Below are positions 3,497 through 25,922 of a stretch of 64,000 bases of DNA, piece after piece. The stretch comes from an uncultured delta proteobacterium (GTDB taxonomy: Bacteria; Myxococcota_A; Polyangia; Fen-1088). The notes under the pieces are model-generated. The model saw only the letters and a program-made list of their open reading frames with translations, was not told the origin of the DNA and ran no database searches. Numbering within the stretch: the first letter of the stretch is position 1; every line of letters begins with the position of its first letter. A program made the position numbers and the translations under genes. Where the stretch lies: the NCBI GenBank assembly GCA_963755125.1, contig CAVWIP010000018.1, positions 32,001 to 96,000 on the forward strand, read 5' to 3'.

Positions 3497-6400
3497 GTGT
3501 GTGCGGAGGGCCATCCCCAGACCTATGGCGATCGCTTTCGCGTCGAGGGCGAAGCGATCGAGGGCGGCATGGGCCTGGTCTATCGGGCCAAGGATCTGAA
3601 GACTGGCGAGCATGTCGCGCTGAAGGTGGTGGCTGAGCCGCAGGGTACGCAATCCCTGCGTTTCCAACAGGAGGCGATGGTGCTGGCCGACATCGCCCAT
3701 CCGGCTATCGTGCGCTACCTGGCCCACGGTTCCACTGCCCGGGGCGAGCAGTACATGGCGATGGAGTGGCTCGACGGCGAGACACTCGAGGACCGACTGG
3801 CACGCGGGCCGTTGCGCATCTCCGAGACCCTGCAACTCGGTCGCCGCGTGGCCGAGGCCCTGGCCGTGGCGCACAAGCACGGCGTCGTCCACCGCGACAT
3901 CAAGCCGGCCAACGTCTTTCTGCCTGCCGGCGATCCAGCTCAGGCCAAGGTGCTGGATTTCGGCATCGCGCGCCGGCTTTTCGATCCGCACCAGAACCTG
4001 CGCATCACCAGCGCCAACGCCGCCCTGGGCACGCCGCTCTACATGGCGCCCGAGCAGGCGCGCGGGGCCAGCACCGTCGACGGACGCGCTGACATCTTCG
4101 CCCTGGGCTGCGTGCTCTTCGAATGCCTCACCGGCCAGCCGCCCTTTGCCGGGACTTCGCCCACCGCGGTCATGGCCAAAATCTGCCTCGACGATTCGGT
4201 GGATCTGGCCCGCCAGCGGCCGGAAACCCCGGCTGATCTGGTCGCGCTGATCGCGCAAATGCTGGCCAAGGATCCAGCAGAACGTCGTGCAAAGGCCGCC
4301 GAGATCGCGCGCTCTCTCGGTGCCATCGCGGGGCAGTTCATCGGCCGCGACACTGCCAGCGATCTGGCAGCAGTCTACCAGGCCCGCACGCCGACCCCGT
4401 CTCTGGTCGCCACCGGCGAGCAACGAATCCTGGCGGCGATCCTGGTTTCGCGATCAAACCCCGGCGCAGCCGCGCCTGCCGCGCACGATCCCGGCCGGAC
4501 GGCTGACCTGGCCGGAATCCTGGCTGAGCGGCTTGCCGATCCCGAACTCGGCGAAGCCTCCCTCGCCGATTTGCGGAGCGCGATCGCGCCCCATGGCGCG
4601 CGCGTCGAGCGGCTGGGCGGCGGCTCGCTGGTCGTCGCGCTGACCGGCGAGCAGGGCACGCCGCTCGACCAGGCCACCCAGGCTGCGCGCTGTGCCCTGC
4701 GCCTCAAGGCTGCACTGCCTGACGCCAGCCTGGGCATCAGCACCAGCCGCGCCGACATGGCCGGCAAGCTTTCCTTGGGCGACGTCATCGACCAGGCCGG
4801 CCACCTGCTCGCCTTCACCCCGGCCGGCACCATCCACATCGACCCGCTCACCTCCCATCTGCTCGAAACCCGCTTCGAGATCCAGACTCTCCCTGACGGC
4901 GCCTCGCGCCTGCTGTTCGAAAAGGGAATTCGCGAAGCCCCGCGCACCCTGATGGGCAAGCCCGTTCCGTGCTTCGGCCGGGATCGCGAGGTCGGCCTGC
5001 TGGAAGCCCTGTGGGATGAAGCGTGCGACGAGCCCGCGGCGCGCGCGATGCTGATGACCTCGACCGCTGGCGGGGGCAAGTCTCGCGTGCGCCACGAGTT
5101 CTGCGACCGCATCCAGCGCCACGGCCAGCCCTTTACGCTTCTGGTTGGCCGAGGCGATCCCATGCGCGACGCCGCACCTTTCGCTTTACTGGGCCCTGCT
5201 CTGCTTGCAGCAGCGGGCATCACCGGCGGCGAGCCCGAGCCCGTGCAGCGCAAGCGCTTGACCGCGCACGCCTCGCGCTTCTTGCCGGCCAAGGACGCCC
5301 TGCGAATCGCGGCGTTCCTCGGTGAGATGGCCAACCTGCCCTTCCCCGACGAGGATCTGCTGCCCTTGCGTGCGGCCCGGCAGGACCCGCGCTTGATGGC
5401 CGACCAAATGCTCATGTCCTGGCTCGATTGGCTGGAGGCCGAGTGCAATCACCATCCGGTCTTGTTGGTGCTGGAAGACCTGCACTGGGGCGACACGCCC
5501 ACCGTGAACTTCGTGGACGCGGCCCTGCGCGTGCACAACGAGAAACCGTTCATGGTGCTGGCCCTGGCGCGCCCCGAGGTGGACCGGCGTTTTCCAGGAG
5601 TGTGGAAAGAGCGCACCCCGCAAAGGATCAACCTGGCGCCGCTGTCGCCGCGAACAAGTCAACGCATGATCGAGCATGTGGTGGGCAAGATTCCCGAGGA
5701 GAGCAGCCGCTGGATCGTGGATCGCGCGCAGGGCAATCCGTTCTACCTGGAAGAATTGCTGCGCGTGGTGGCCGAAGGAGGCAAGGTCGGCGACGACAGC
5801 AACCTGCCCGACACAGTGCTGGGCATGGTGCAGGCGCGTTTCGACATCTTTGGCCCCGACGCCAAGCTGGTCCTGCGCGCGGGCAGCATCTTTGGCCAAA
5901 CCTTTCGGCCCGCCGGGGTCAAGGCCCTGGTCAACGAAGACCGGCGCAAGGACGTGGACCGCTGGCTGGAGATCCTGACCAAGCGCGAGATTCTTTTTTC
6001 GCGGCCAGCGGCTGACCTGCGCGAGTACGCGTTTCGGCACGCGCTGTTGCGCCAGGCAGCCTACGAGATGCTGCCGCCAGCCGAAAAGAAACTGGGCCAC
6101 CTGCTGGCTGGCGAGTACCTGGAGCAGGCCGGCGAGCGGCAGGGCATCGTGCTGGCCGACCACTTCGAGCGCGCAGGCGAAAAGCCACGCGCCATTCGCT
6201 GGCTGGGCGTGGCCGCCCAGCAAGCGTTGGACGCAGACGACTTGGTGGAAACCCTCGCGCGCATCGAACGCGCCGTGAACCTGGGCGCCACTGGCGAAGC
6301 ATTGTGCGCGATGCGGGTCATCGAATCGCAGGCCAGGTACTGGCATGGCGAATATGTGGAAGCGGAGAGAGCGGCGCGGGAGGCGCTCGTCTCCAGTGAC

Positions 6401-7453
6401 GCGCGAACCAGATTGGGCGCTCTGAGCGCACTCTTCGACGGGCTCGGTCCACAGACCAAGTATGCCGAGATTGCCACGCTATTCCGGGACCTCAAACGAC
6501 CGGCAGCGCCTGAACTGTTGAATCCCTGGCTTGACTGCATGGTCAACGCGACCGCCTACCTCGCTGTCGGTGGCGACAGGGACGTGCGAGGGCGCACGCT
6601 TGCGCTCTTGGAAGAATCGAGAGAGCGGTTGGAGCCGATTCTCGTCGGACGGACCAAGACGATAAAGGCGCAATTGGCGCGCAACAAAGGCAAGCTGGCG
6701 GAAAGTGTCGCGGACTTCAGGCGTGCCGCAGATTACTACGAAAGCATCGGCCACCGGCGGGCCGCTTGTGAGGCTCTTGGAAACCTCGGCAATGCCCTAC
6801 TTGAGCTTGGCCACCTCGAAGAAGCTGAAGCGCGTATGCGACAGGTTCTGGCCACCGCAAACAAGATGGACCTTAAGTATATGGTTGGGGGTAGCCTTCA
6901 GCTCCTGACCAATATCCTCGCGTACCAAGGATCTCTTGCTGAGGCACGAACGATCGGCGCGCAAGCGATTGCCCTGACCAGGGGGCAGAACGATCGGCGG
7001 TTCCAGGGGTACGCGGAGGCATATCTCTCAGTGACCGAGTACTTGGCCGGAGACTACGCGCGTGCTGAGCACTACGCGAGCGCCGCAGTGACGACATGGG
7101 AGACCGCGCCTTCAGTCAGACCCTTCGCAATCGCCCTGCTTGCGCGAGCACTTCTCGCGCAAGGTCGCGAAGCCGAGGCTCTGGTCAGTGCCCGCGATGC
7201 CAACGCGCAACTTGAGAGCCTCGGCGTCGTCGATGACGGCGAGGCGACGATACGTTTGGCGCTTGCTGAGTGCCTGATCGCGACCAGAGACACGGCGCCA
7301 GCCCGGGAGGTTCTGGCGAAGGCCGCCAACCGCATTCTCGCCTCGGCAGAGGCTATTGAGGATCCCGCAAGTCGAGAGTCGTTCCTCACACGTATCCCCG
7401 AGCACCGCCGCATCCTGGAACTCGCCCGCGATCTCGCTGCGTCCAAGAGCTGA
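3497..7453 (+). CDS. Ser/Thr kinase - degenerate cyclase-like - STAND/AAA ATPase - TPR protein, paralogue 1
   Basis: Kinase motifs VALK, HRDIKPAN, DFG, GTPLYMAPE; Walker A AGGGKS; Walker B LLVLEDLHWGD; GNPFYLEEL; helical TPR-like C-terminus. Start moved to GTG 3497 by alignment with paralogue 3 (HPQTYGDRFR). Confidence 0.9.
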   Translation: MCAEGHPQTYGDRFRVEGEAIEGGMGLVYRAKDLKTGEHVALKVVAEPQGTQSLRFQQEAMVLADIAHPAIVRYLAHGSTARGEQYMAMEWLDGETLEDRLARGPLRISETLQLGRRVAEALAVAHKHGVVHRDIKPANVFLPAGDPAQAKVLDFGIARRLFDPHQNLRITSANAALGTPLYMAPEQARGASTVDGRADIFALGCVLFECLTGQPPFAGTSPTAVMAKICLDDSVDLARQRPETPADLVALIAQMLAKDPAERRAKAAEIARSLGAIAGQFIGRDTASDLAAVYQARTPTPSLVATGEQRILAAILVSRSNPGAAAPAAHDPGRTADLAGILAERLADPELGEASLADLRSAIAPHGARVERLGGGSLVVALTGEQGTPLDQATQAARCALRLKAALPDASLGISTSRADMAGKLSLGDVIDQAGHLLAFTPAGTIHIDPLTSHLLETRFEIQTLPDGASRLLFEKGIREAPRTLMGKPVPCFGRDREVGLLEALWDEACDEPAARAMLMTSTAGGGKSRVRHEFCDRIQRHGQPFTLLVGRGDPMRDAAPFALLGPALLAAAGITGGEPEPVQRKRLTAHASRFLPAKDALRIAAFLGEMANLPFPDEDLLPLRAARQDPRLMADQMLMSWLDWLEAECNHHPVLLVLEDLHWGDTPTVNFVDAALRVHNEKPFMVLALARPEVDRRFPGVWKERTPQRINLAPLSPRTSQRMIEHVVGKIPEESSRWIVDRAQGNPFYLEELLRVVAEGGKVGDDSNLPDTVLGMVQARFDIFGPDAKLVLRAGSIFGQTFRPAGVKALVNEDRRKDVDRWLEILTKREILFSRPAADLREYAFRHALLRQAAYEMLPPAEKKLGHLLAGEYLEQAGERQGIVLADHFERAGEKPRAIRWLGVAAQQALDADDLVETLARIERAVNLGATGEALCAMRVIESQARYWHGEYVEAERAAREALVSSDARTRLGALSALFDGLGPQTKYAEIATLFRDLKRPAAPELLNPWLDCMVNATAYLAVGGDRDVRGRTLALLEESRERLEPILVGRTKTIKAQLARNKGKLAESVADFRRAADYYESIGHRRAACEALGNLGNALLELGHLEEAEARMRQVLATANKMDLKYMVGGSLQLLTNILAYQGSLAEARTIGAQAIALTRGQNDRRFQGYAEAYLSVTEYLAGDYARAEHYASAAVTTWETAPSVRPFAIALLARALLAQGREAEALVSARDANAQLESLGVVDDGEATIRLALAECLIATRDTAPAREVLAKAANRILASAEAIEDPASRESFLTRIPEHRRILELARDLAASKS

Positions 7454-7493
7454 GGGGTGGCCGGGACCACGTGCCCGGTGGTCGCGCGCGCCG

Positions 7494-15341: not shown

Positions 15342-18300
15342 GTGAGGGACCAGGACCGGTTCGAGACCCAAGAGGAAACGCCCTTCGTGGTGTGTGAGCA
15401 GGGGCGTTTCGGTGAGCGCTTCCAGGTTGAATCGTTGGTGGGCAGCGGGGGCATGGGGATGGTTTTCCGTGGGCGCGACCTGTTGGATGGGCAGGCGGTG
15501 GCGCTCAAGGTTCTGCGCCGACAGGGACACAACGCCACTGAACGGTTGCTTCGCGAGGCAGAAGTGCTGGCTGCGCTCTCCCATCCGGCCGTCGTCCGCT
15601 ACGTGGGCCACGGTATGACCTTGCAGGGCGAGCCCTACCTGGCGATGGAGTGGCTCGACGGGGAGACGCTGGCCGATCGGCTTGCCCGTGGGGCCATCGG
15701 ATCAGTGGCAGCGGCGCGCCTGGGCAGCCGTGTGCTACTTGCGCTGGCCGTGGCACATTCGCACGGCATCGTCCACCGAGACATCAAGCCATCGAATCTG
15801 TTCTTGCCCGAGGCGGACCTGGGCCAGGCCAAGCTGCTCGACTTCGGCATTGCGCGCCGGACGCAAGACGATTGGCCGGTCACCAGGCCTGGGACGGCGC
15901 TGGGCACGGCCATGTACATGGCGCCTGAGCAGGCGCGCGACGGGGACGCGGTCGACGGGCGAGCGGACATCTTCTCGCTGGGCTGCGTGCTCTACGAGTG
16001 CGCGACTGGCGAGCCGCCTTGCCGCCAGGTGAGCCACGCTGGCAGAACTCCCGCCTGGTACGAAGCGGATCCCACGGGGCAATGCTGGGCCGTGGCACAG
16101 CCGTTGCGGGAGGTGCTAGCCCGCATGCTCGCCCTCGAGCCGGCAAAGAGGCCGGGCGACGTTGAGGAGCTGTCAGCCGAGCTGGCGTCGGTGGCAGACA
16201 CGTTGGTGGCGAATGGCCAGAGTGCAGAGCGCCGCCGCGAAACCCTGTCGGTGGACGAGCAGCGCGTCGTGGCCGTAGTGCTGGTCGCGGGCATGCGGCG
16301 AGAGAATCGCAATGACGCGGAGGAGGCGGCCCTACAAGAGTTGCTGGCGCCGCACCGAACGCAGGCCGAACGCATGGCCGATGGCACGATAAGGATCTCC
16401 TTCACAGGTCAAGCCACGCCGCTAGACCAGGCCACGCAAGCCGCGCGCTGTGCTTTGCGCCTGAAGGCCGCGCTGCTTGACGCTAGCCTGGGCATCAGCA
16501 CCAGCCGCACTGATCTGGCCGGCAAGCTTTCCCTGGGCGATGTCATCGACCAGGCCGGCCTTCTGCTCACCACCACCCCGGCCGGCACCATCCACATCGA
16601 CGGCCTCACCGCCCGCCTGCTGGAGACCCGCTTCGAGATCCAGGCGCTTGCCGACGGCACCTCACGCCTGCTGTTCGAAAAGGGAATTCGCGAAGCCCCG
16701 CGCACCCTGATGGGCAAGCCCGTCCCGTGCTTCGGCCGGGATCGCGAGGTCGACCTGCTGGAAGCCCTGTGGGATGAAGCGTGCGACGAGCCCGCCGCGC
16801 GCGCGATGTTGATGACCTAGGCCGCGGGCGGGGGCAAGTCGCGCGTGCGCCACGAGTTCTGCGACCGCATCCAGCGACGCAGTCGCGCCTTTGCGCTGCT
16901 GGTTGGTCGCGGCGATCCCATGCGCGACGCCGCGCCGTTTGCTTTGCTGGGCCAGGCCCTGCTCGCGGCCACAGGGATCACCGGCGCTGAGCCCGAGGCT
17001 GCACAGCGCAAGCGCCTGACCGCGCACGCCGCGCGCTTCCTGCCGGCCAAGGACGCCCTGCGGGTCGCGGCGTTCCTGGGCGAGATGGCCAACCTGCCTT
17101 TTCCCGACGAGGATCTGCCACCCTTGCGCGCGGCCCGGCAGGACCCGCGCTTGATGGCCGACCAGACGCTCATGGCCTGGCTCGACTGGCTGGAGGCGGA
17201 GTGCAATCACCATCCGGTGCTACTGGTGCTGGAGGATCTGAACTGGGGCGACGCGCCCAGCGTGAACTTTGTAGACGCGGCCCTGCGCGTACACAACGAG
17301 AAGCCGTTCATGGTGCTGGCCCTGGCGCGACCCGAGGTGGACCGGCGTTTTCCTAGCCTGTGGAAGGAACGCAACCCGCAGCGGATCAATCTGGCGCCGC
17401 TGTCGCCCAAGTCCACTCAGCGGATGATCGAGCATGTGGTGGGCAAGATCTCCGAAGAGAGCAGCCGCTGGATCGCGGAGCGGGCGCAGGGAAATCCTTT
17501 CTACCTTGAGGAACTGCTGCGCGTGGTGGCCGAAGGAGGCAAGGTCGGCGACGACAGCAACCTGCCCGACACGGTGCTGGGCATGGTGCAGGCCCGCTTC
17601 GACATCTTTGGCCCGGACGCCAAACTGGTCCTGCGCGCGGGCAGCATCTTTGGCCAGACCTTTCGGCCTGCCGGGGTCAAGGCCCTGGTCGACGAGGATC
17701 GGCGCAAGGACGTGGACCGCTGGCTGGAGATCCTGACCAAGCGAGAGATTCTGTTTTCGCGACCGACCGCGGACCTGCGCGAGTACGCGTTCCGGCACGC
17801 GCTGTTGCGCCAGGCGGCCTACGAGATGCTGCCGCCAACTGAAAGACGGCTGGGCCACCTGCTGGCTGGCGAGTACCTGGAGCAGGCTGGTGAGCGCCAG
17901 GGCATCGTGCTGGCCGACCACTTCGAGCGCGCAGGCGAAAAGCCACGCGCCATTCGCTGGCTGGGCGTGGCAGCCCAGCAGGCGCTGGACGCGGATGACT
18001 TGGCGGAAACCATCGCGCGCGTCGAGCGAGGCGTGAACCTGGGCGCCGCGGGCGAAGAATTGTATGCGATGCGAGTGATCGAGTCGGACGCGAAGTTCTG
18101 GCGAGGGCAATACCTGGAGGCGGAGCGAGCGGCTCGGGAGGCGCTCGCCTCCAGTGAGGCGCGGACCAGGCTGGACGCACTGAGCGCGCTCTTCGATGCA
18201 CTTGGCCCACAGATCAAGTACGACGAGATCGCCACGCTATTCCGCGGTCTCGAGCGGCCAGCAGCGCCTGAACTCTTGAATGCCTGGCTTGACTGTTTCG

Positions 18301-19211
18301 CGAACGCGGCTGGCTACCTCACCTACGCTGGCGACAACGAGATCCGTCACCAAACCTTGACGCTGCTGGAGGAGTCACGAGACCAGCTGGAGCCGATCAT
18401 GCTGGGACGGGCAGAGGGCCTGAGGTCGCACATCGCGAGAAGCCAGGGCAATCCAGCCGAATCTCTCGCGGCAGCCAAACGCGCCGCTGACTACTTCGAG
18501 AGCATCGGCCACCGCCGCGCCGCTTGCGAGGCTCTTGCGAACGTCGGCGTGAGCCTGCTCGAGCTCGGCCGACTGGAAGAAGCCGAGGCCTGCATCCAGC
18601 AGATCATGGCCACGGCGCGAAAGATGGACCTCAAGTACATGCTTGGGGGCAGCCTGCAAGCCCTGACCAACATCCTTGCCTACAAGGGATCTTTTGCCGA
18701 GGCACGCGCTGTCGGCCAGGAGGGCATCGCCGTCAACCGCACGCAGAATGATCGACGCTTCCAGGGATGCGCGGAGGCGTATCTCTCGGTGACGGAATAC
18801 CTGGCGGGCGATTACGCACGCGCCGAGCAGTACGCGCGCGCAGCCCTGACCACATGGGAGACCGTGCACGCAGTTTTGCCCTTCGCGCGCGCCTTGCTGG
18901 CTCGCGCCCTGCTGGCGCAGGGCCACAAGGCCGAGGCGCTGTCGACCGCGCGCGATGCGTATGCCGAGTTCGAGAGGATAGGCATCGTGGACGACGGCGA
19001 GGCGACGATACGATTGGCGCTTGCCGAGTGCCTGATCGCGGGCAGAGACATCGCGGCGGCCCAGGAGGTTCTAGACACGGCGGCTAGCCGAATTCTCGCG
19101 GCGGCAAAGGCCATTGACGATCCCGAAGTTCGCGAGTCGTTCCTGAACCGTATCCCCGAGCATCGCCGCATCCTTGAACTCGCGCACGAGTTGGCCACCG
19201 GGAAAGTTTGA
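15342..19211 (+). pseudogene. Kinase-STAND-TPR paralogue 2, interrupted by one in-frame TAG at 16818-16820
   Basis: ORFs 15342..16820 and 16845..19211 share a frame. LMT*AAGGGKS aligns with LMTSTAGGGKS and LMASAAGGGKS of paralogues 1 and 3 (TCG>TAG). Confidence 0.85.
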
Positions 19212-19223
19212 CCCCAGAACGCG

Positions 19224-19247
19224 AAACGCCGCCCGTAGGCAGCGTTT
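19224..19247 (-). terminator. Hairpin between convergent paralogue 2 and the peptide gene
   Basis: On the minus strand, AAACGCTGCC-TACG-GGCGGCGTTT forms a 10-bp stem with one G.U pair and a C(UACG)G tetraloop. The same pair is a C.A mismatch on the plus strand. Confidence 0.65.
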
Positions 19248-19268
19248 TCTGCGGTCGATATGTCGCGA

Positions 19269-19337
19269 CTACTTCGGCCAGTTGCCTCCGCCGCTGCGTA
19301 CTCGGGACTTCACTTTGATGCCAGATGTCTTCTTCAT
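19269..19337 (-). CDS. 22-aa peptide MKKTSGIKVKSRVRSGGGNWPK (candidate RiPP precursor or signalling peptide)
   Basis: Manual translation ATG 19337 to TAG 19269; RBS AAGGAG 8 nt upstream; downstream hairpin favours this strand; too short for the ORF track. Confidence 0.75.
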   Translation of the reverse strand: MKKTSGIKVKSRVRSGGGNWPK

Positions 19338-19412
19338 GGGGGGATCTCCTTGCGTGGGTTGAAATACTTCGAGGGACGGCAGCATGGTCGATCAAGGAGA
19401 CGCACCTTGCAA

Positions 19413-19568
19413 GTCAAATCTTTGACGATGTCGTCAGTTCATTGACAATGTTGCACTGCTGTCACGCAAATTCTTATCAATTTCAATCTGTTCACTGACA
19501 ACTACGGTCAGCCTATCAACATGTTTTCAACTGTAGTCAACTTCATGACTATCGGTCACATGAATGAC
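19413..19568. promoter_or_regulatory. AT-rich array of GTCA-N6-TGAC palindromic operator/UAS-like sites
   Basis: Perfect sites at 19413-19426, 19433-19446, 19536-19549 and 19555-19568; degenerate sites at 19486-19499 and 19507-19520. Confidence 0.75.
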
Positions 19569-19766
19569 TGTCTGCCATAATTATCCGTTTAATTACAGTT
19601 GGTTGCGATTACAGATATCCGAGCAAACTGCTGTTCGCGTTATCCAATTGCGCTACCGCCGCGCCCGAACTAGCAACCGAGCGTCGGCCCCTGTTCCCTC
19701 GCGAACCCTTGAGCGGCGCCGGCCAGATCCCTGTAACATTCCGCCCGTAGCACTCAGGCAGTATCC

Positions 19767-22700
19767 GTGGAGTCCCATCCCCAGACCTACGGCGATCGTT
19801 TTCGTATCGACGGCGATCCGATCGAGGGCGGCATGGGCCTGGTCTATCGCGCAGAGGATTTGAAGACCGGCGAGTATGTCGCGCTGAAGGTAGTGGCCGA
19901 GCCTCGGGGCACACAGTCCCTGCGCTTCCAGCAGGAAGCCGTCGTGCTGGCCGGCATCGCTCACCCGGCGATCGTGCGCTACCTGGCCCACGGCTCCACC
20001 GCCGACGGCGAGCAGTACATGGCGATGGAGTGGCTGGAGGGCGAAACCCTGGAGGACCGCGTGGCGCGCGGGCCGCTGCGCATCTCCGAGACCTTGCAGC
20101 TCGGTCGCCGCGTGGCCGAGGCCCTGGCCGTGGCGCACAGGCACGGCGTCGTCCACCGCGACATCAAGCCGGCCAACATTTTTCTGCCTGCCGGCGATCC
20201 ATGCCAGGCCAAGGTGCTGGACTTCGGCATCGCGCGCCGCCTGTTCGATCCGGAGCAACGCATGCGCATCACCAGCGTCGGCGCCGCGCTGGGCACTCCG
20301 CTGTACATGGCGCCCGAGCAGGCACGCGGGGCCAGCAACGTCGACGGACGCGCCGACATCTTCGCCCTGGGCTGCGTGCTCTTCGAATGCCTCACCGGCC
20401 AGCCACCCTTTGCCGGCACTTCGCCCACCGCGATCATGGCCAAGATCTGCCTGGACGATCCGGTGGATCTGGCCCGCCGACGGCCGGAAACTCCGGCCGA
20501 TCTGGTCGCGCTGATCGCGTGCATGCTGGCCAAGAATCCCGACCAGCGTCCGGCGAAGGCCGACGAGGTCGCGCGCGCGCTGGCTGCCACTGCGGCCGAG
20601 TTCGTCGACCGCGACAGCGACCTTGCCGCAATCTACCGGACCCGCACGCCGACTCCGGCGCTGGTCGCCACTGGCGAGCAGCGTATCCTGGCCGCCATCC
20701 TGGTTTCGCGACCGCGCTCCGGCGCAGTCACGCGTGTCGTACACGATCCGGGCCGGACCGCTGACCTGGCCGGTATCCTGTCTGAACGACTCGCCAACCC
20801 CGAACTGGGCGAAGCGGGCCTGGGAGATCTGCAGAGTGCCATCGCGCCCCTCGGTGCGCGCGTCGAGCGACTGGGTGGCGGTTCGCTGGTCATTGCCCTG
20901 ACCGGCGAGCAGCAGGGCACGCCGCTCGACCAAGCCACGCAGGCCGCGCGCTGTGCCCTGCGCCTGAAGGCCGCGCTGCCTGACGCCAGCCTGGGCATCA
21001 GCACCAGCCGCACTGACATGGCCGGCAAGCTTTCCCTGGGCGACGTCATCGATCAGGCCGGGCACCTGCTCGCCACCACCCCGGCCGGCACCATCCACAT
21101 CGACAATGTCACCGCCCATCTGCTGGAAAACCGCTTCGAGATCCAGGCGCTGGCCGACGGCACCTCGCGCCTGCTGTTCGAGAAGGGAATTCGCGAAGCC
21201 CCGCGCACCCTGATGGGCAAGGCCGTTCCGTGCTTCGGCCGGGATCGCGAAGTCGACCTTCTGGAAGCTCTGTGGGATGAAGCGTGCGACGAGCCCGCCG
21301 CGCGCGTGATGCTGATGGCCTCGGCAGCGGGCGGGGGCAAGTCGCGCGTGCGCCACGAATTCTGCGACCGCATCCAGCGTCGCAGTCGCGCGTATGCGAT
21401 GCTGGTTGGTCGCGGCGATCCCATGCGCGACGCCGCGCCTTTTGCCTTGCTGGGCTCCGCGTTGCTCGCGGCCGCTGGCATCACCGGCGCTGAGCCCGAG
21501 GCTGTGCAGCGCAAGCGCCTGACTGCGCACGCCTCGCGCTTCTTGCCCGCCAAGGATGCCTTGCGAATCGCGGCGTTTCTGGGCGAGATGGCCAACCTGC
21601 CTTTCCCCGACGAGGATCTGCCACCCCTGCGCGCGGCCCGGCAGGATCCGCGCTTGATGGCCGACCAGACGCTCATGGCCTGGCTCGACTGGCTGGAAGC
21701 CGAGTGCAGTCATCATCCGGTACTGCTGGTGCTGGAGGATCTGCACTGGGGCGACTCGCCCAGCGTGAACTTCGTGGACGCGGCCCTGCGCGTACACAAC
21801 GAGAAGCCGTTCATGGTGCTGGCCCTGGCGCGGCCCGAGGTGGACCGGCGCTTTCCGGGCCTGTGGAAAGAACGCAACCCGCAGCGGATCAACCTGACGC
21901 CGCTGTCGCCCAAGTCAACCCAACGCATGATCGAGCATGTGGTGGGCAAGATTTCCGAAGAAAGCGCGCGCTGGATCGCGGAGCGGGCACAGGGCAATCC
22001 GTTTTACCTTGAGGAATTGCTGCGCGTGGTGGCCGACGGGGGCAAGGTCGGCGACGACAGCAACCTGCCCGACACGGTGCTGGGCATGGTGCAGGCGCGC
22101 TTCGACATCTTTGGCCCGGACGCCAAGCTGGTCCTGCGCGCGGGCAGCATCTTTGGCCAGACCTTTCGGCCCGTAGGGGTCAAGGCCCTGGTCGACGAGG
22201 ATCGGCGCAAGGACGTGGACCGCTGGCTGGAGATCCTGACCAAGCGAGAGATTCTGTTTTCGCGACCGACCGCGGATCTGCGCGAGTACGCGTTCCGCCA
22301 CGCGCTGTTGCGCCAGGCAGCCTACGAGATGCTGCCACCGACGGAGAAACGGCTGGGCCACCTGCTGGCTGGCGAGTACCTGGAGCAGGCTGGTGAGCGC
22401 CAGGGCATCGTGCTGGCCGACCACTTCGAGCGCGCCGGTGAGAAGCCACGCGCGATTCGCTGGCTGGGCGTGGCAGCCCAGCAGGCGCTCGACGCGGATG
22501 ACTTGGCGGAAGCCGTCGGCCGCGTCGAACGTGCCGTGAATCTGGGCGCTGCGGGTGAGGAATTGTGTTCGATGCGGGTGATCGAGTCGCAGGCGAGGTT
22601 CTGGCGAGGGCAATACCTGGAGGCGGAGCAAGCGGCTCGGGAGGCGCTCGCCTCCAGTGAGGACCGGACCAAACTGGACGCCCTGAGCGCGCTCTTCGAT

Positions 22701-23714
22701 GCGCTTGGCCCACAGGTCAAGTACGACGAGATCGCCGCGCTATTCCGCGACCTCGAGCGACCAGAAGCACCTGAATTGCTGAATGCCTGGCTCGACTGCT
22801 TCGTGAGCGCGGCTGGTTACCTCACCTACGCTGGCGACAACGAGATCCGTCACCAAACCTTGACGCTGCTGGAGGAGTCACGAGACCAGCTGGAGCCGAT
22901 CATGCTGGGACGGGCAGAGGGCCTGAGGTCGCACATCGCGAGAAGCCAGGGCAATCCAGCCGAATCTCTCGCGGCAGCCAAACGCGCCGCTGACTACTTC
23001 GAGAGCATCGGCCACCGGCGCGCCGCTTGCGAGGCTCTTGCGAACGTCGGCGTGAGCCTGCTCGAGCTCGGCCGACTGGAAGAAGCCGAGGCCTGCATCC
23101 AGCAGATCATGGCCACGGCGCGAAAGATGGACCTCAAGTACATGCTTGGGGGCAGCCTGCAAGCCCTGACCAACATCCTTGCCTACAAGGGATCTTTTGC
23201 CGAGGCACGCGCTGTCGGCCAGGAGGGCATCGCCGTCAACCGCACGCAGAATGATCGACGCTTCCAGGGATGCGCGGAGGCGTATCTCTCGGTGACGGAA
23301 TACCTGGCGGGCGATTACGCACGCGCCGAGCAGTACGCGCGCGCAGCCCTGACCACATGGGAGACCGTGCACGCAGTTTTGCCCTTCGCGCGCGCCTTAC
23401 TGGCTCGCGCCCTGCTGGCGCAGGGCCACAAGGCCGAGGCGCTGTCGACCGCGCGCGATGCGTATGCCGAGTTCGAGAGGATAGGCATCGTGGACGACGG
23501 CGAGGCAACCATCCGTCTGGCGTTGGCCGAGTGTTTGCTCGTTTCCGGCGATCGCCTGGCCGCGAAGGAGGTTTTGGCCGCGGCGACAAGACAGGTCCAC
23601 GCCTGGGCAGCCACCATCGAAGATTTCGCCGGTCGCCAGGCGTACCTGACCCGCATCCCGGAGCACCGCCGCATCCTGGAACTTGCACAAGAACTGGCCG
23701 GGGACAAGAGCTGA
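19767..23714 (+). CDS. Kinase-STAND-TPR paralogue 3
   Basis: Same motif set as paralogue 1 (HRDIKPAN, DFG, MAPE, AGGGKS, LEDLHWGD, GNPFYLEEL); intact 1315-aa ORF. Confidence 0.9.
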   Translation: MESHPQTYGDRFRIDGDPIEGGMGLVYRAEDLKTGEYVALKVVAEPRGTQSLRFQQEAVVLAGIAHPAIVRYLAHGSTADGEQYMAMEWLEGETLEDRVARGPLRISETLQLGRRVAEALAVAHRHGVVHRDIKPANIFLPAGDPCQAKVLDFGIARRLFDPEQRMRITSVGAALGTPLYMAPEQARGASNVDGRADIFALGCVLFECLTGQPPFAGTSPTAIMAKICLDDPVDLARRRPETPADLVALIACMLAKNPDQRPAKADEVARALAATAAEFVDRDSDLAAIYRTRTPTPALVATGEQRILAAILVSRPRSGAVTRVVHDPGRTADLAGILSERLANPELGEAGLGDLQSAIAPLGARVERLGGGSLVIALTGEQQGTPLDQATQAARCALRLKAALPDASLGISTSRTDMAGKLSLGDVIDQAGHLLATTPAGTIHIDNVTAHLLENRFEIQALADGTSRLLFEKGIREAPRTLMGKAVPCFGRDREVDLLEALWDEACDEPAARVMLMASAAGGGKSRVRHEFCDRIQRRSRAYAMLVGRGDPMRDAAPFALLGSALLAAAGITGAEPEAVQRKRLTAHASRFLPAKDALRIAAFLGEMANLPFPDEDLPPLRAARQDPRLMADQTLMAWLDWLEAECSHHPVLLVLEDLHWGDSPSVNFVDAALRVHNEKPFMVLALARPEVDRRFPGLWKERNPQRINLTPLSPKSTQRMIEHVVGKISEESARWIAERAQGNPFYLEELLRVVADGGKVGDDSNLPDTVLGMVQARFDIFGPDAKLVLRAGSIFGQTFRPVGVKALVDEDRRKDVDRWLEILTKREILFSRPTADLREYAFRHALLRQAAYEMLPPTEKRLGHLLAGEYLEQAGERQGIVLADHFERAGEKPRAIRWLGVAAQQALDADDLAEAVGRVERAVNLGAAGEELCSMRVIESQARFWRGQYLEAEQAAREALASSEDRTKLDALSALFDALGPQVKYDEIAALFRDLERPEAPELLNAWLDCFVSAAGYLTYAGDNEIRHQTLTLLEESRDQLEPIMLGRAEGLRSHIARSQGNPAESLAAAKRAADYFESIGHRRAACEALANVGVSLLELGRLEEAEACIQQIMATARKMDLKYMLGGSLQALTNILAYKGSFAEARAVGQEGIAVNRTQNDRRFQGCAEAYLSVTEYLAGDYARAEQYARAALTTWETVHAVLPFARALLARALLAQGHKAEALSTARDAYAEFERIGIVDDGEATIRLALAECLLVSGDRLAAKEVLAAATRQVHAWAATIEDFAGRQAYLTRIPEHRRILELAQELAGDKS

Positions 23715-23900: not shown

Positions 23901-25922
23901 ATGGGCCAGAGGATAGGCGCGACCAATCCGCGCGGGCGTTTCTGCGGAAGCGCTTCCTTGGCCTCAGACGCAGTGGATCTCCTCCTGCTCAACGCCTCGA
24001 ATCTGCCTGACAAGACCGTATACCCCTACGCGTTCGTGCAAGTCTCGGCGCTGGCACGCCACTTCGGTCTCAAAGTCGCACGCTTCGACTTTGTCCGACT
24101 CAATCGACAACAGATCCGCTACCACCTGACTGATCTCATCCGACGGCGTCGGCCACGCATGATCGGTTTGCACCTGCGGCAGGCGGACTCGGTCGTGGAA
24201 TCGGACTATCCGCCGCCACCTTTCGGCGATCCGTCAAAGTACTACCTGCCTGTCGATGACACCCGCGCGCTGGTGGGCGAAATCCGCCGGCTGACCCAAG
24301 CCCCCATCGTGGCCGGCGGCTTTGGCTTCTCTTCCCACCCGCTGCAAACCGCCGCACGCCTTCAGGTGGATTTCGGGATCCAGGGCGAACCTGACGGATT
24401 CTTCGCGCGTTTCGCTGACGTGCTGGCCCGCCGCCATCTGGACCAAGTGCCCAACTTGGTCTACCGCCGGGGTCGCACCTTCCACGCCAACCCGCGCGTC
24501 TTCTATCCCCCGTTCGATGGACCGGAATATACGGATGAGATGGTGGACGAGCTGATTCGTTTCTACGGGGAGCGTGCACTGCTTGAGGGCACCATGGATA
24601 CCGTTGCGGTGGAGATCGCGCGCGGCTGTCCCTTTCGCTGCTACTTCTGTAACGAGCCGGCGGTGAAGGGCCGCCACGTTCAGTACCGGAACTGGTCCGC
24701 GGTGGAGGCAGATCTGGCGACGCTGGCATCCCGCGGGATCCACAACGTGTGGTTCGTCTGCTCTGAGATCAACATCCACCCCCGACGGGCGCGGACGATT
24801 GCCCGTCGGATGCGCGCCCTGAACGCTGGCCGCGACGGGAACACGCGCGTTCGCTGGCGCTCATACAGCATCCCGCGCATGGATCCGGCCCACCTGCGCG
24901 CCATGCTGTCGGCCGGCTTCCAGCCGGGCTGGAACGACTTCCCGTCCTTCGACGACACCAACTTGGCTCGTTGTCAGGTGCCTTTCCGAACGCGCTCCGC
25001 CCTCGACTACTACCGGCGCTACCTCGACTGGGCCGACCGACAGCCCGACCCGCCCGCTGACCGTCAAACCTTCTCTCTCTTTCTTGGCAACGCCTTTGCC
25101 ACGGCACGCACCATCAGCACCACCTTGCGCCGGGTCGACGCCCTCAGCCTGCAGGCCAGACACGAACAGGCAGCGGTCAGCACCGCCACGCGCGTCTTTC
25201 GCGTCGACGGCAGGTACACCTGCGGCGACGAGCGCTCGCTGTCTACGCTCGGACGTGGCGGCAGGATCCCACTCGACGTTGTCGGCCCCACCTTTCATTT
25301 CGCACCAGCTTTGGTCCGCCAGCTAGGCAGTGAGCAGGCAGTGCGCGATTTTCTCGCCTACGTGGGCTCGACCTTCCTGTCGAGCGAGCATCTGCACAAA
25401 CGCAACTGGCCCGAGTTTCTCTCCGCGAACGTCTCTTCTCCCGGTCTGCTAGCCCTCGTGCGCACCGCCCGGCAGGCACGAACGGTGGGACCGGTGCAGG
25501 TGGACGCCGACGATGAGCAACTGGCCTATGAGATCCGACGCTCGCTCGCGACGCTGTGGAAGAAACTCGATGAGACGGCAGTGCGACGCCTCTTCTCGCC
25601 CGGAGCGGAGAAGAGACTCTACGGTCATGTGGTCAATGGGGTGCTGATCCAACTCATGCGGCCCAACGCCCGCGCCTTTGCTCGCATCCTTCGCACCCTG
25701 CGCATTCCACACGATCGGGATGGCTTCTACGACTTGTCCGAATACCGCGTGGCCCGCATCTTGTACCACCATTCTGACAGCAACGAGGATCTCGTGGCCG
25801 AGATGTGTCGCTTGCACGATTTGCGGGTGGACTCGCTCGACCTCCTGCAACTACAGCACTTTCTGTTCGAGAACAACGTGCAGATCCGGCCCGAGTACCG
25901 CCCGCTGCTGTTCGCCAAGTAG
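23901..25922 (+). CDS. Radical SAM protein with cobalamin-binding-like N-terminal region and long C-terminal extension
   Basis: CxxxCxxC in ARGCPFRCYFC; N-terminal IVAGGFGFS and GIQGEPD segments resemble B12-binding radical SAMs. Start may be GTG near 23973. Confidence 0.8.
   Translation: MGQRIGATNPRGRFCGSASLASDAVDLLLLNASNLPDKTVYPYAFVQVSALARHFGLKVARFDFVRLNRQQIRYHLTDLIRRRRPRMIGLHLRQADSVVESDYPPPPFGDPSKYYLPVDDTRALVGEIRRLTQAPIVAGGFGFSSHPLQTAARLQVDFGIQGEPDGFFARFADVLARRHLDQVPNLVYRRGRTFHANPRVFYPPFDGPEYTDEMVDELIRFYGERALLEGTMDTVAVEIARGCPFRCYFCNEPAVKGRHVQYRNWSAVEADLATLASRGIHNVWFVCSEINIHPRRARTIARRMRALNAGRDGNTRVRWRSYSIPRMDPAHLRAMLSAGFQPGWNDFPSFDDTNLARCQVPFRTRSALDYYRRYLDWADRQPDPPADRQTFSLFLGNAFATARTISTTLRRVDALSLQARHEQAAVSTATRVFRVDGRYTCGDERSLSTLGRGGRIPLDVVGPTFHFAPALVRQLGSEQAVRDFLAYVGSTFLSSEHLHKRNWPEFLSANVSSPGLLALVRTARQARTVGPVQVDADDEQLAYEIRRSLATLWKKLDETAVRRLFSPGAEKRLYGHVVNGVLIQLMRPNARAFARILRTLRIPHDRDGFYDLSEYRVARILYHHSDSNEDLVAEMCRLHDLRVDSLDLLQLQHFLFENNVQIRPEYRPLLFAK

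What the first reader, a model, noticed from the sequence alone, without database searches (positions are those of the whole stretch)
19224..19351. Hidden 22-aa peptide gene MKKTSGIKVKSRVRSGGGNWPK between two kinase-STAND-TPR genes
Seen: a minus-strand ORF missed by the ORF track, with AAGGAG 8 nt before the ATG and a downstream hairpin that pairs fully and has a C(UACG)G loop only on this strand. The peptide has a basic Lys/Arg-rich N-terminus, a Gly-Gly-Gly junction and a short Trp-containing tail (GNWPK). Known: double-glycine leaders are cleaved in many RiPPs and peptide pheromones, and radical SAM enzymes form Trp-x-Lys crosslinks (darobactin core WNWSKSF). Inference: this is a precursor whose C-terminal residues are released and possibly modified.
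Basis: partly seen in the sequence, partly recalled or inferred. Interest (0 to 1): 0.88.

Follow-up and report, generated by a model that had tools for sequence, protein, structure and literature searches.

The report
Tiny conserved gene beside sensor kinase
A real but unannotated 22-amino-acid gene, with its own elaborate control region, always sits tail-to-tail with a large sensor kinase gene in one group of uncultured myxobacteria, and probably makes a small partner or ligand of that kinase, not an antibiotic-like peptide precursor.

Summary
The ORF is there as described (window 19337..19269, minus strand; AAGGAG 8 nt upstream; GC hairpin 19247..19224). It is a real gene. The same 21-24 codon ORF, with Shine-Dalgarno site and hairpin, occurs in all 10 same-genus genomes and in 7 of 13 genomes of a second genus. 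Its substitutions are mainly synonymous. It was not found in 329 sampled genomes of other families in the class. No gene caller has recorded it.

Its one constant neighbour is a Ser/Thr-kinase/AAA_16(STAND)/TPR gene whose 3' end it faces (51 of 55 loci with enough sequence). Peptide and kinase duplicate together. In the second genus the peptide is present exactly where a close kinase homologue is.

Upstream lie four GTCA-N6-TGAC palindromes. This double site occurs nowhere else in the 4.5 Mb genome and is conserved in 46 of 48 relatives.

A complex prediction gave weak support for binding to the STAND-TPR part. The best reading is a regulated cytoplasmic micro-protein partner of the kinase (confidence about 0.5).

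The RiPP reading is poorly supported. The Gly-Gly, the Trp and the terminal Lys are not conserved, and no peptidase, exporter or maturase is consistently linked. Only the aromatic-Pro pair near the C-terminus is constant.

The parts
19269..19337 (-). 22-codon micro-protein gene (ATG 19337, TAG 19271-19269): MKKTSGIKVKSRVRSGGGNWPK
   Evidence: The ORF is conserved in relatives. Codon-position pattern of substitutions. pN/pS.
19346..19351 (-). Shine-Dalgarno AAGGAG, 8 nt before the ATG
   Evidence: An (A)GGAG-type motif precedes the ATG in all 16 GTDB-scan and all 47 metagenome-scan family ORFs.
19224..19247 (-). GC-rich hairpin (10-bp stem, UACG loop) followed by a weak T tail. It is a likely terminator shared with the converging kinase gene, whose stop is at 19211.
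   Evidence: fold. In one search, all 45 distinct 3' flanks of relatives show a GC hairpin with differing, compensating stem sequences; it does not pass the simple terminator scan.
19384..19389 (-). -10-like hexamer GACCAT. This is inferred only; it aligns with GAC[GC]AT in same-genus loci and T[CG]TAAT in the second genus.
   Evidence: Alignment of 25 and 23 distinct upstream regions. Inference, no transcript start mapped.
19413..19446 (.). Promoter-proximal pair of GTCA-N6-TGAC palindromes (19413-19426, 19433-19446). The proximal one overlaps a TTGACT hexamer (19417-19412, minus strand).
   Evidence: 5 sites in the window against 0.82 expected. (the double site occurs only twice in the 4.5 Mb genome, both here; reversed control 0). 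(conserved position in 46 of 48 relatives).
19536..19568 (.). Distal pair of GTCA-N6-TGAC palindromes (19536-19549, 19555-19568), about 120 bp from the proximal pair, inside the AT-rich stretch (GC 0.40-0.47).
15342..19211 (+). K2: the converging Ser/Thr kinase / AAA_16 (STAND) / TPR gene. In this genome it is interrupted by an in-frame TAG at 16818-16820, just before the Walker A motif.
   Evidence: Pfam. Stop codon. An intact Ser codon stands at that place in contig L092. K2 is 90% identical to K3 over residues 352-1313 but only 48% in the kinase domain.
19767..23714 (+). K3: intact paralogue (Pkinase, AAA_16, MalT-like TPR; 1315 aa), transcribed divergently from the peptide gene across the operator region.
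   Evidence: the best NCBIfam match is TIGR03903 'TOMM system kinase/cyclase fusion protein', 306.8 bits, below its cut-off of 705.75.
3506..7450 (+). K1: third paralogue (82% identical to K3). Its orthologue is the peptide's converging partner in most same-genus genomes.

Best explanation
The ORF is a real, translated micro-protein gene. It has its own regulated promoter, a strong ribosome-binding site and a terminator shared with the converging gene.

Its product is a very basic 22-residue cytoplasmic peptide with three parts:
- a conserved alternating hydrophobic/basic stretch, G-[IL]-K-V-[KR]-[ST]-[KR]-V-R-S-G;
- a flexible, Gly-rich link;
- a variable tail ending aromatic-Pro-x.

The proposed mechanism has two steps, both inferred. 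A still unknown dimeric DNA-binding regulator acts on four GTCA-N6-TGAC operators to control when the peptide is made. Once made, the peptide binds the STAND-TPR sensor part of the neighbouring Ser/Thr kinase and modulates its activity. It would thus act as a genetically encoded ligand or 'connector' that links a transcriptional input to a kinase output.

Shown: the gene is real, its linkage to the kinase is strict, and the operators are conserved. Inferred: binding to the kinase (weak computational support only), the direction of the effect, and the identity of the regulator.
For: Coding.
- In 18 profile-found sequences, the 11 core codons vary at codon positions 1/2/3 in 4/3/11 sites. Pairwise codon differences are 582 synonymous against 247 non-synonymous.
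- Residue 11 is Ser(TCN), Thr(ACN) or Ser(AGC), so a hydroxyl residue is kept across codon families.
- pN/pS is 0.18 for codons 6-16, 0.63 for codons 17-19 and 0.88 for codon 22.
- A Shine-Dalgarno site is present in all 63 family ORFs of the two scans.

Linkage.
- A kinase C-terminus lies on the opposite strand within 200 nt in 16 of 16 genome loci and 35 of 39 metagenome loci that have at least 300 nt of room.
- The partner is Pkinase/AAA_16/TPR in 5 of the 7 second-genus loci tested. The other two (L064, L065) lack a Pkinase or a TPR hit at the 1e-4 threshold.
- Upstream neighbours differ from locus to locus.
- Genome G065 has two peptide+kinase pairs.
- In genus g8 the peptide is found in exactly the 7 genomes that have a kinase homologue at least 50% identical. 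It was not found in the 5 genomes with only about 36% homologues or none. One further genome (G073) is cut at the critical place.

Regulation. Operator sites.

Binding. The verdict was weak support: score 0.53 (runs 0.50, 0.54, 0.53), best of 3 controls 0.01. The mark was reached by 116 of 157 solved complexes and 2 of 215 mismatched pairs. At 0.60 or under it was reached by only 18 of those 157 and by both mismatches that passed. The runs agree in at least 45% of contacts, and the partner's pLDDT is at least 43. My own alignments were used and the partner has fewer than 30 residues, unlike the calibration.

Supporting detail.
- The TPR part has a mean net charge of -11.3 across 25 partners, against +7 for the peptide.
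- Fold matches of the modelled STAND-TPR are peptide-binding TPR superhelices and a solved STAND-TPR protein.
- Contigs from RNA libraries of 4 runs in 4 studies cover the ORF.
Against: - The binding evidence is one weak computational pass. No interface was given, and such passes are 'more often wrong than right unless the guess was likely beforehand'.
- The peptide core is far more conserved than the kinase: it is nearly identical between genera whose kinases are 50-57% identical. This fits a more conserved target at least as well.
- The same peptide (GNWPK tail) sits next to differing kinase versions (window K2 against contig L092).
- Genomes hold 1-7 kinase paralogues but usually only one peptide gene.
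- In contigs L106 and L129 the peptide persists where the converging kinase has been replaced.
- Adjacency within two related genera is partly inherited synteny, and the genome and metagenome loci overlap in origin.
- The RNA data are contigs only. They show neither strand, nor ends, nor level.
Confidence: 0.5

Rival explanations
1. RiPP or pheromone precursor. The conserved N-part would be a leader, and the C-terminal x-x-aromatic-Pro-x would be released and/or modified by enzymes encoded elsewhere, for example a radical SAM enzyme. The kinase would sense or regulate the product.
For: - Leader/core-like conservation.
- A B12-type radical SAM gene lies next to the locus in the window and in G009. 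Within the family its homologues occur only in peptide-bearing genomes (6 of 6 hits).
- Contig L106 carries an FKBP_C + Radical_SAM gene about 250 nt downstream on the same strand.
- The kinase's best NCBIfam match is named 'TOMM system kinase/cyclase fusion protein'.
Against: - 12 of the 18 peptide-bearing family genomes lack the B12 radical SAM homologue.
- The FKBP/radical-SAM gene is absent from the window's own genome. In G008, G005 and G001 it lies elsewhere, with no peptide gene upstream.
- Gly-Gly, Trp and the terminal Lys are not conserved.
- No peptidase, exporter or RRE-type gene is a constant neighbour.
- The peptide matches no NCBIfam or Pfam precursor model.
- The TIGR03903 score is below its cut-off (306.8 against 705.75).
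Confidence: 0.12
2. Substrate or pseudosubstrate of the kinase domain. The invariant hydroxyl residue at position 11 (or Ser15), set among basic residues, would be phosphorylated by the catalytic site or would occupy it.
For: - Position 11 is Ser in 24 and Thr in 15 of 39 peptides, never anything else, and it crosses codon families. This position was not fixed by the scan pattern.
- Ser15 is found in 39 of 39, but it is partly fixed by the pattern.
- The extreme conservation of the core would fit a conserved catalytic cleft.
Against: - The single complex job used the STAND-TPR part, not the kinase domain.
- The window's K2 and K3 kinase domains are only 48% identical.
- Bacterial Hanks-kinase substrate motifs are poorly defined (recalled).
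Confidence: 0.12
3. An independent small basic protein, for example a nucleic-acid- or ribosome-binding stress peptide, made under its own regulator. Its position next to the kinase gene would reflect inherited synteny and a shared terminator, not a functional partnership.
For: - Its own promoter with four operators is conserved whatever lies upstream.
- The core is much more conserved than the kinase.
- The peptide persists without the converging kinase in L106 and L129.
- It is strongly cationic (+7, no acidic residue).
Against: - Peptide and kinase duplicate together (G065).
- Presence or absence matches the close kinase subfamily exactly in genus g8.
- Adjacency survives complete turnover of all other neighbours.
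- The complex score of 0.53 stands against controls of 0.01 or less (weak).
Confidence: 0.18
4. A mainly cis-acting element. Transcription and translation of the short ORF towards the kinase gene's 3' end would control kinase expression, through convergent transcription or 3'-end antisense pairing at the shared hairpin. Alternatively, it would be a leader peptide for attenuation.
For: - Convergent arrangement with only 45-115 nt between the two stop codons and one shared hairpin.
- RNA-library contigs run across the hairpin from the ORF into the kinase 3' end (records 1, 4, 9 and 11).
Against: - Amino-acid-level selection on the peptide is not needed for an antisense role.
- No gene lies downstream on the same strand in 51 of 55 loci, so classical attenuation has nothing to control.
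- The hairpin starts about 21 nt after the stop codon, outside a terminating ribosome's footprint (the footprint size is recalled).
Confidence: 0.05

Closest known systems
Rgg/SHP cassettes of streptococci, group III (RRNPP peptide-receptor systems)
   Same: A short peptide gene sits immediately downstream of, and convergent to, the gene of its repeat-domain receptor. [quoted passage not shown] The size of about 22 residues, the MKK start and the specificity in the C-terminal residues are recalled.
   Different: - SHPs are hydrophobic, exported, processed and re-imported, and the receptor is a DNA-binding Rgg regulator of Firmicutes (PMC3679016, passages).
- Here the peptide is hydrophilic and cationic, with no hydrophobic stretch.
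- The partner is a Pkinase/AAA_16/TPR protein of Myxococcales MAGs.
- No exporter or oligopeptide permease is linked.
Rap/Phr cassettes of Bacillus
   Same: A tiny gene lies at the 3' end of a TPR-protein gene, and its C-terminal five or so residues carry specificity (recalled). A Rap protein bound to its peptide (4gyo_B) is among the fold matches of the modelled STAND-TPR (rank 41, TM 0.60 normalised to the target).
   Different: - Phr has a signal peptide and lies on the same strand (recalled).
- Rap has no NTPase or kinase domain.
- The fold match is generic for TPR superhelices: higher-ranked matches are APC/C, LGN and TSK.
Small 'connector' or regulator proteins of sensor kinases (SafA, MgrB, PmrD, Sda; all recalled, none tested)
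   Same: Short proteins, made under a separate transcriptional signal, bind a sensor kinase or its partner and reset its output. This is the mechanism proposed here.
   Different: - Those act on histidine kinases or response regulators, and most are membrane or folded proteins of 45-90 residues.
- There is no sequence similarity: 0 Pfam or NCBIfam families match the peptide.
- Here the target would be a Hanks-type kinase fused to a STAND NTPase.
AfsR/AfsS of Streptomyces (recalled)
   Same: A small ORF lies next to the 3' end of the gene for a STAND-TPR signalling protein that belongs to a Ser/Thr-kinase pathway.
   Different: - AfsS is 63 residues with repeats, and it is a transcriptional target of the DNA-binding AfsR (recalled).
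- The kinase protein here has no DNA-binding domain.
- The peptide promoter carries palindromes of another kind.
Double-glycine leader peptides and radical-SAM-crosslinked RiPPs such as darobactin
   Same: A short precursor-like ORF with a conserved N-part, a Gly-Gly in most members and an aromatic residue near the C-terminus.
   Different: - Gly-Gly, Trp and Lys are not conserved.
- There is no linked C39 peptidase or exporter and no constant radical SAM partner.
TIGR03903 'TOMM system kinase/cyclase fusion protein' (for the kinase partner)
   Same: This is the best NCBIfam match of K3: 306.8 bits, E 3.2e-91, covering residues 33-917. It describes a large kinase fusion that NCBI's model name ties to a peptide natural-product system.
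   Different: The score is far below the curated cut-off of 705.75, so K3 is not a member. No TOMM cyclodehydratase or precursor was seen among the neighbours examined.

Membership tests
Double-glycine leader peptides (cleaved by C39-peptidase ABC exporters) | Conserved Gly-Gly (or Gly-Ala/Ser) at the cleavage site | tested here: not met
   Among 39 distinct 22-residue members, residue 17 is Gly in 31 and residue 18 in 24. Members with GA, GV or AC at this place occur.
Double-glycine leader peptides (cleaved by C39-peptidase ABC exporters) | Cognate peptidase-domain ABC transporter encoded nearby | tested here: not met
   Pfam scans of 19 window ORFs between 1747 and 35358 and of 16 neighbour ORFs in the second genus found no Peptidase_C39 or ABC transporter. 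One OEP outer-membrane gene lies in one locus only.
Double-glycine leader peptides (cleaved by C39-peptidase ABC exporters) | Match to a curated leader or precursor model | tested here: not met
   0 NCBIfam families at E up to 10 and 0 Pfam families at E up to 0.01 for the 22-aa peptide; 0 NCBIfam families for the 38-aa form as well.
Radical-SAM-crosslinked RiPPs (darobactin type) | Radical SAM maturase co-located and co-inherited with the precursor | tested here: not met
   Homologues of the B12-type radical SAM gene are in 6 of the 18 peptide-bearing family genomes. The FKBP/radical-SAM gene is in 4, and not in the window's own genome. Such a gene is adjacent only in the window, G009 and contig L106.
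Radical-SAM-crosslinked RiPPs (darobactin type) | Conserved crosslink residues (Trp ... Lys) | tested here: not met
   Position 20 is W 23, F 10, Y 3, L 2, T 1. The last residue is K 9, R 20, H 5 and others 5, of 39.
Radical-SAM-crosslinked RiPPs (darobactin type) | Modified, released product | not testable with these tools
   This needs mass spectrometry.
RRNPP-type peptide/TPR-receptor cassettes | Small peptide gene adjacent to the receptor gene | tested here: met
   51 of 55 loci with at least 300 nt of room have the kinase-STAND-TPR C-terminus converging within 200 nt.
RRNPP-type peptide/TPR-receptor cassettes | Receptor of the Rap/Rgg/NprR/PlcR/PrgX family | tested here: not met
   The partner is Pkinase + AAA_16 + MalT-like TPR. 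No HTH or Rap-type domain was reported.
RRNPP-type peptide/TPR-receptor cassettes | Peptide exported and re-imported (signal or hydrophobic segment) | tested here: not met
   The sequence has 7 Lys/Arg, no acidic residue and no hydrophobic stretch. No exporter is linked. Export itself is not testable here.
RRNPP-type peptide/TPR-receptor cassettes | Peptide binds the repeat domain of the receptor | tested here: inconclusive
   Complex prediction: weak support, score 0.53 against a best control of 0.01. At 0.60 or under the mark was reached by only 18 of 157 solved complexes, and by both of the 2 of 215 mismatches that passed. No interface was given.
Small-protein regulators ('connectors') of sensor kinases | Made under separate transcriptional control | tested here: inconclusive
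   Its own promoter region with four conserved palindromes argues for it. The regulator and the inducing signal are unknown.
Small-protein regulators ('connectors') of sensor kinases | Direct binding that changes kinase output | not testable with these tools
   Only the weak prediction is available. Biochemistry is needed.
Regulatory leader / arrest peptides (TnaC, SecM type) | A downstream gene on the same strand controlled in cis | tested here: not met
   The next gene is convergent in 51 of 55 loci, and a terminator hairpin follows the ORF in all 45 distinct 3' flanks folded.
TIGR03903 TOMM system kinase/cyclase fusion (the kinase partner) | Score at or above the curated cut-off | tested here: not met
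   306.8 bits against a cut-off of 705.75.

The most novel reading that the evidence does not exclude
This may be a genetically encoded, cytoplasmic 22-residue ligand that switches an NLR-like STAND Ser/Thr kinase. That would be a peptide/TPR-receptor cassette outside the Firmicute RRNPP systems, without export, and with phosphorylation rather than DNA binding as its output. Production of the peptide would be gated by a four-operator, possibly DNA-looping, control region found nowhere else in the genome. The peptide's variable aromatic-Pro-x tail would set pair specificity.
Probability: 0.33. Interest if true: 0.75.

Novelty: new variant of a known kind. Interest (0 to 1): 0.62.

Why it matters
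What activates bacterial STAND (NLR-like) signalling proteins is mostly unknown, and the large kinase-STAND-TPR proteins of myxobacteria have no known ligands. A co-inherited micro-protein would give a concrete candidate that can be synthesised and tested on the purified sensor.

The finding also shows that a strongly conserved, heavily regulated gene can be absent from public protein predictions. None of the 8 exact peptide forms looked up is among about 15 billion predicted proteins. At 22 codons it may be too short for common gene callers (recalled, not tested).

If the RiPP reading were right instead, the conserved aromatic-Pro C-terminus would mark a new very short core.

Tried and rejected
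Not pursued with a padded query.
- Rfam on 19100-19850, both strands: no match at E up to 1.
- Sigma-54 promoter (GG-N10-GC with flanks) in the 300 nt upstream of 49 distinct loci: no conserved site. The idea that the neighbouring FHA/sigma-54 activator drives the gene was therefore dropped. FHA binding to a phospho-Thr of the peptide was also dropped, because Thr4 is not conserved and residue 11 is often Ser.
- Peptide-like ORFs after more distant kinase homologues (45% identical or less): 8 flanks were scanned. In the 3 whose stop codon I could place (L146, L147, L151) no such ORF was seen. My stop-finding was unreliable in the other 5.
- Weak profile hits in G024 (three repeats inside a 191-aa frame) and G080 (89-aa frame) did not show the small-ORF pattern in the scan and were not counted.
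- The scan pattern also hit 3 (GTDB) and 7 (metagenome) unrelated sites, mostly C-termini of larger proteins reading G[IL]KVK[DK]RVRGGD. These are chance matches.
- RNA contigs: depth figures and uncovered parts were not used as evidence. Contigs of two studies (X2, X4) stop at 19364, and X2 has an 11-letter loose end there that looks like sequencing adapter (recalled). No DNA run was laid, so this is at most a faint hint of an RNA end.
- Earlier notes of this scan: nothing by place or by sequence.
- Literature: two full-text searches found nothing on such a peptide or on the function of the kinase/cyclase fusion family. Their terms were: protein kinase, STAND, TPR, small ORF, Myxococc; TIGR03903, kinase cyclase fusion, TOMM system kinase. 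Only listings and abstract starts were seen.
- The simple promoter scan found only one plus-strand site (19422-19449) and none for the peptide strand.
Full report
**The observation.** On the minus strand, an ATG at 19337 opens a 22-codon frame that ends with TAG at 19271-19269. Its product is MKKTSGIKVKSRVRSGGGNWPK. AAGGAG lies at 19351-19346, 8 nt before the ATG. About 21 nt after the stop codon, a 10-bp GC-rich stem with a UACG loop spans 19247-19224.
- The hairpin folds at -24.2 kcal/mol on this strand (z -2.55) and -20.6 kcal/mol on the other (z -1.49).
- Its T tail is weak, and the simple terminator scan does not list it.
- The ORF lies between two plus-strand genes. One (16845-19211) ends 57 nt from the peptide's stop. 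The other (19767-23714) starts 430 nt upstream of the peptide's ATG, on the other side of a stretch whose GC falls to 0.40-0.47.

**It is a real gene.**
- A DNA search with 19200-19780 hit all 10 genomes of the same genus and one genome of another genus. The best-kept part was the ORF and its ribosome-binding site.
- In 12 loci the ORF is intact in 11 and cut by a contig end in one. All 12 have an (A)GGAG motif about 7-10 nt before the ATG, and all 11 whose 3' flank is present have a GC hairpin after the stop.
- Across 18 sequences found by DNA or profile search, the 11 core codons vary at 4, 3 and 11 sites in codon positions 1, 2 and 3. Pairwise codon differences are 582 synonymous and 247 non-synonymous.
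- Residue 11 is Ser (TCN), Thr (ACN) or Ser (AGC), so the hydroxyl is kept across codon families.
- Over 41 distinct 22-codon sequences, pN/pS is 0.18 for codons 6-16, 0.63 for 17-19, 0.34 for 20-21 and 0.88 for codon 22. Several columns in 6-16 were fixed by the scan pattern used to collect part of this set, so that value is biased downwards.
- Relatives have in-frame stops a few codons upstream of the ATG, so the 22-residue form is the conserved product, not the 38-residue form from ATG 19385.
- None of 8 exact peptide forms is among about 15 billion predicted proteins. The peptide matches no Pfam or NCBIfam model.

**Distribution.**
- A profile of the peptide found it in 10 of 10 genomes of the window's genus and in 7 of 13 of a second genus. 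It found no credible copy in the other 17 genera of the family (89 genomes).
- In a sample of 401 genomes of the class it was found only in these two genera, and in 0 of 329 genomes of other families.
- A degenerate DNA pattern run over genome contigs (one genome for each of 185,579 GTDB species) gave 19 matches. Of these, 16 are this ORF, on records titled as uncultured Myxococcales, 'delta proteobacterium' or Proteobacteria MAGs. The other 3 are chance matches.
- The same pattern over metagenome contigs gave 54 matches, of which 47 are the ORF (45 complete, 2 cut), with 35 distinct peptides.
- The family reads M-[KA]-[KN]-x-x-G-[IL]-K-V-[KR]-[ST]-[KR]-V-R-S-G, then two or three variable residues, then an aromatic or Leu residue (W 23, F 10, Y 3, L 2, T 1 of 39), an invariant Pro and a variable last residue.
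- Pattern scans cannot find divergent members, so the true range may be wider.

**The constant neighbour.**
- The converging gene encodes Pkinase, AAA_16 (STAND NTPase) and MalT-like TPR domains. Its best NCBIfam match is TIGR03903, below that model's cut-off.
- A C-terminus of this family lies on the opposite strand within 200 nt of the peptide's stop in 16 of 16 genome loci and 35 of 39 metagenome loci with at least 300 nt of room.
- The four exceptions are: L106 and L129 (kinase replaced), L142 (389 nt away), and the distal of two tandem peptide genes in L137.
- The two stop codons are 45-115 nt apart with one hairpin between them.
- Everything else around the pair changes. The neighbour is a radical SAM gene in G009 and a gene with no Pfam match in G001 and G007. 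It is an FHA/sigma-54 activator in G005 and G002. In the second genus it is a DUF4143 ATPase, integrases next to a tRNA-Arg, an outer-membrane efflux gene or a VgrG gene.
- G065 has two peptide genes 15 kb apart, each with its own kinase paralogue.
- Kinase homologues at 35-49% identity occur in 75 of 89 family genomes, but the peptide goes with the close subfamily only. In the second genus it is present in the 7 genomes with a homologue at least 50% identical, and was not found in 5 genomes with only about 36% homologues or none. In G073 the contig ends about 55 nt beyond the kinase stop.
- The window's own genome has just three close paralogues, all in this window.
- These loci come from two related genera, and some metagenome contigs are surely the same organisms as the genomes. 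The counts are therefore not independent events.

**The control region.**
- Upstream of the ORF, four GTCA-N6-TGAC palindromes lie at 19413, 19433, 19536 and 19555. The window has 5 such sites against 0.82 expected.
- The double site occurs only twice in the 4.5 Mb genome, both here. The reversed control pattern occurs 0 times.
- In 46 of 48 distinct upstream regions, sites lie about 105/86 and 226/207 nt before the ATG in the window's genus. In the second genus they lie about 106/87, 219/200 and 276 nt before it. This holds whatever gene lies upstream, so they belong to the peptide gene.
- The proximal site overlaps a TTGACT hexamer. About 30 nt from its centre lies a -10-like hexamer: GAC[GC]AT, or T[CG]TAAT with a TG extension in the second genus. 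This geometry would fit a regulator bound over the -35 region (inference).
- Two operator pairs about 120 bp apart suggest looping by a dimer of dimers (inference).
- Most same-genus loci also have a small hairpin, CCGGCG-N7-GCCGG, just before the ribosome-binding site. It is degenerate in the window.
- No sigma-54 promoter is conserved, and no Rfam family matches.

**Transcription.**
- Ten RNA-library runs from nine studies hold part of 18900-20100.
- Contigs of four of them, from four studies, cover the ORF. Examples are 19103-19317 with no difference in two runs, and 18932-19364 in another.
- These are assembled contigs. They show presence in RNA libraries, but not strand, ends or level.

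**Does it bind the kinase?**
- I paired the last 800 residues (STAND-TPR) of the natural converging kinase from contig L092 with the peptide. L092's peptide is identical to the window's, and its kinase gene is intact. Each chain was given as an alignment of 25 partners.
- The verdict was weak support: score 0.53 (runs 0.50, 0.54, 0.53), best of 3 controls 0.01.
- The mark was reached by 116 of 157 solved complexes and 2 of 215 mismatched pairs. At 0.60 or under it was reached by only 18 of those 157 and by both mismatches that passed.
- The runs agree in at least 45% of contacts, the partner's pLDDT is at least 43, and no interface was given. My own alignments and a partner under 30 residues lie outside the calibration.
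- The modelled STAND-TPR (pLDDT 78, pTM 0.60) resembles peptide-binding TPR superhelices: TSK with a histone tail, LGN complexes, a solved STAND-TPR protein, and a Rap protein with its peptide at rank 41. This is generic for TPR folds.
- The TPR part is acidic (mean net charge -11.3 over 25 partners) and the peptide carries +7. This is compatible but not specific.

**The RiPP reading.**
- Against it: Gly-Gly, Trp and the terminal Lys are not conserved. No C39 peptidase, ABC exporter or recognition-element protein is linked.
- The B12-type radical SAM gene next door (23901-25922; its best models score far below their cut-offs) has homologues in only 6 of the 18 peptide-bearing family genomes. 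It has none in the 71 genomes counted without the peptide.
- In favour: in contig L106 the converging kinase is replaced by an FKBP_C + Radical_SAM gene about 250 nt downstream of the peptide on the same strand. That is suggestive for a peptide with an invariant Pro.
- However, that gene is missing from the window's own genome. In G008, G005 and G001 it lies elsewhere, after a gene whose end looks like a prolyl oligopeptidase (my reading, untested), with no peptide gene.
- I keep this rival at about 0.12.

**Other rivals.**
- A kinase substrate or pseudosubstrate is plausible, because residue 11 is always Ser or Thr. It was not tested here.
- An independent cationic stress peptide would explain why the core is far more conserved than the kinase and why the gene survives in L106. 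It does not explain the co-duplication or the matching presence and absence.
- A purely cis-acting role does not need the observed amino-acid selection. A leader-peptide role has no gene to control.

**Comparison with known systems.**
- The layout most resembles RRNPP cassettes, especially group III Rgg/SHP, where the peptide gene lies downstream of and convergent to the receptor gene (PMC3679016, passage), and Rap/Phr.
- It fails their defining features: the receptor family is different, and there is no sign of export.
- The proposed mechanism most resembles the small connector proteins of two-component systems (recalled).
- I therefore file it as a new variant of a known kind: a micro-protein tied to a STAND Ser/Thr kinase. 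It is not a member of any named family.

**Limits.**
- All function is inferred.
- The organisms are uncultured.
- The binding evidence is a single weak prediction.
- The regulator is unknown.

Noticed in passing
window 16818-16820: The converging kinase gene K2 carries an in-frame TAG where its paralogue K3 has Ser, two residues before the Walker A glycines (MLMT*AAGGGKS against MLMASAAGGGKS). A near-identical metagenome contig (L092) has an intact Ser codon there. In this genome K2 is either a recent pseudogene, a split gene or an assembly error.
   Followed up: partly
window 15342-19211 against 19767-23714: K2 is mosaic. Its kinase domain is 48% identical to K3's, but residues 352-1313 are 90% identical, and the last 60 or so residues differ again. 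This looks like gene conversion between tandem paralogues.
   Followed up: partly
window 7450-7497; loci L030 (G005), L033 (G002): In G005 and G002 the peptide gene lies between the K1 orthologue and an FHA + sigma-54 activator gene. In the window these two genes converge with only 47 nt between them and no peptide gene, so the peptide gene has been lost from or moved away from K1 here.
   Followed up: partly
L062 9304-9380, L063 9340-9414, L069 1056-1130: In the second genus, a tRNA-Arg(CCG) gene lies about 500-700 nt upstream of the peptide gene, divergent from it. P4-type integrase genes sit next to the tRNA in two of these loci (L063, L069). The module therefore borders an integration hot spot.
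   Followed up: partly
L106 2163-4520 (minus); L152, L153, L154: There is a 785-residue fusion of an FKBP-type prolyl isomerase domain with a radical SAM domain. In three reference genomes it follows a gene whose C-terminus looks like a prolyl oligopeptidase (untested). In contig L106 it sits directly after the peptide gene. It may be an enzyme acting on a proline-containing peptide.
   Followed up: partly
window 23901-25922: This is a B12-binding-type radical SAM protein. Its best models are a lipid-biosynthesis B12/rSAM model (91 bits) and tryptophan 2-C-methyltransferase (83 bits), both far below their cut-offs. Within the family its homologues were found only in 6 genomes, all peptide-bearing.
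   Followed up: partly
L137 4096-4127 and 4551-4582: Two peptide genes lie in tandem, 455 nt apart, before one converging kinase gene. The kinase-proximal copy lacks the upstream palindromes.
   Followed up: no
L095 and L098 (metagenome contigs): After the peptide gene, only a remnant of about 94 residues of the kinase C-terminus remains (46% identical to K3). The peptide gene and its terminator region outlived the kinase gene.
   Followed up: no
L075, L081, L119, L141, L100: Larger proteins of Chloroflexota and other organisms end with G[IL]KVK[DK]RVRGGD..YK. This resembles the peptide core by chance, or because both form a similar strand-turn element.
   Followed up: no
window 9562-14199: Between the kinase paralogues lie a LuxR-type (GerE) regulator, an S8 subtilase and a Kelch-repeat protein. 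They are not conserved next to the peptide in relatives.
   Followed up: no
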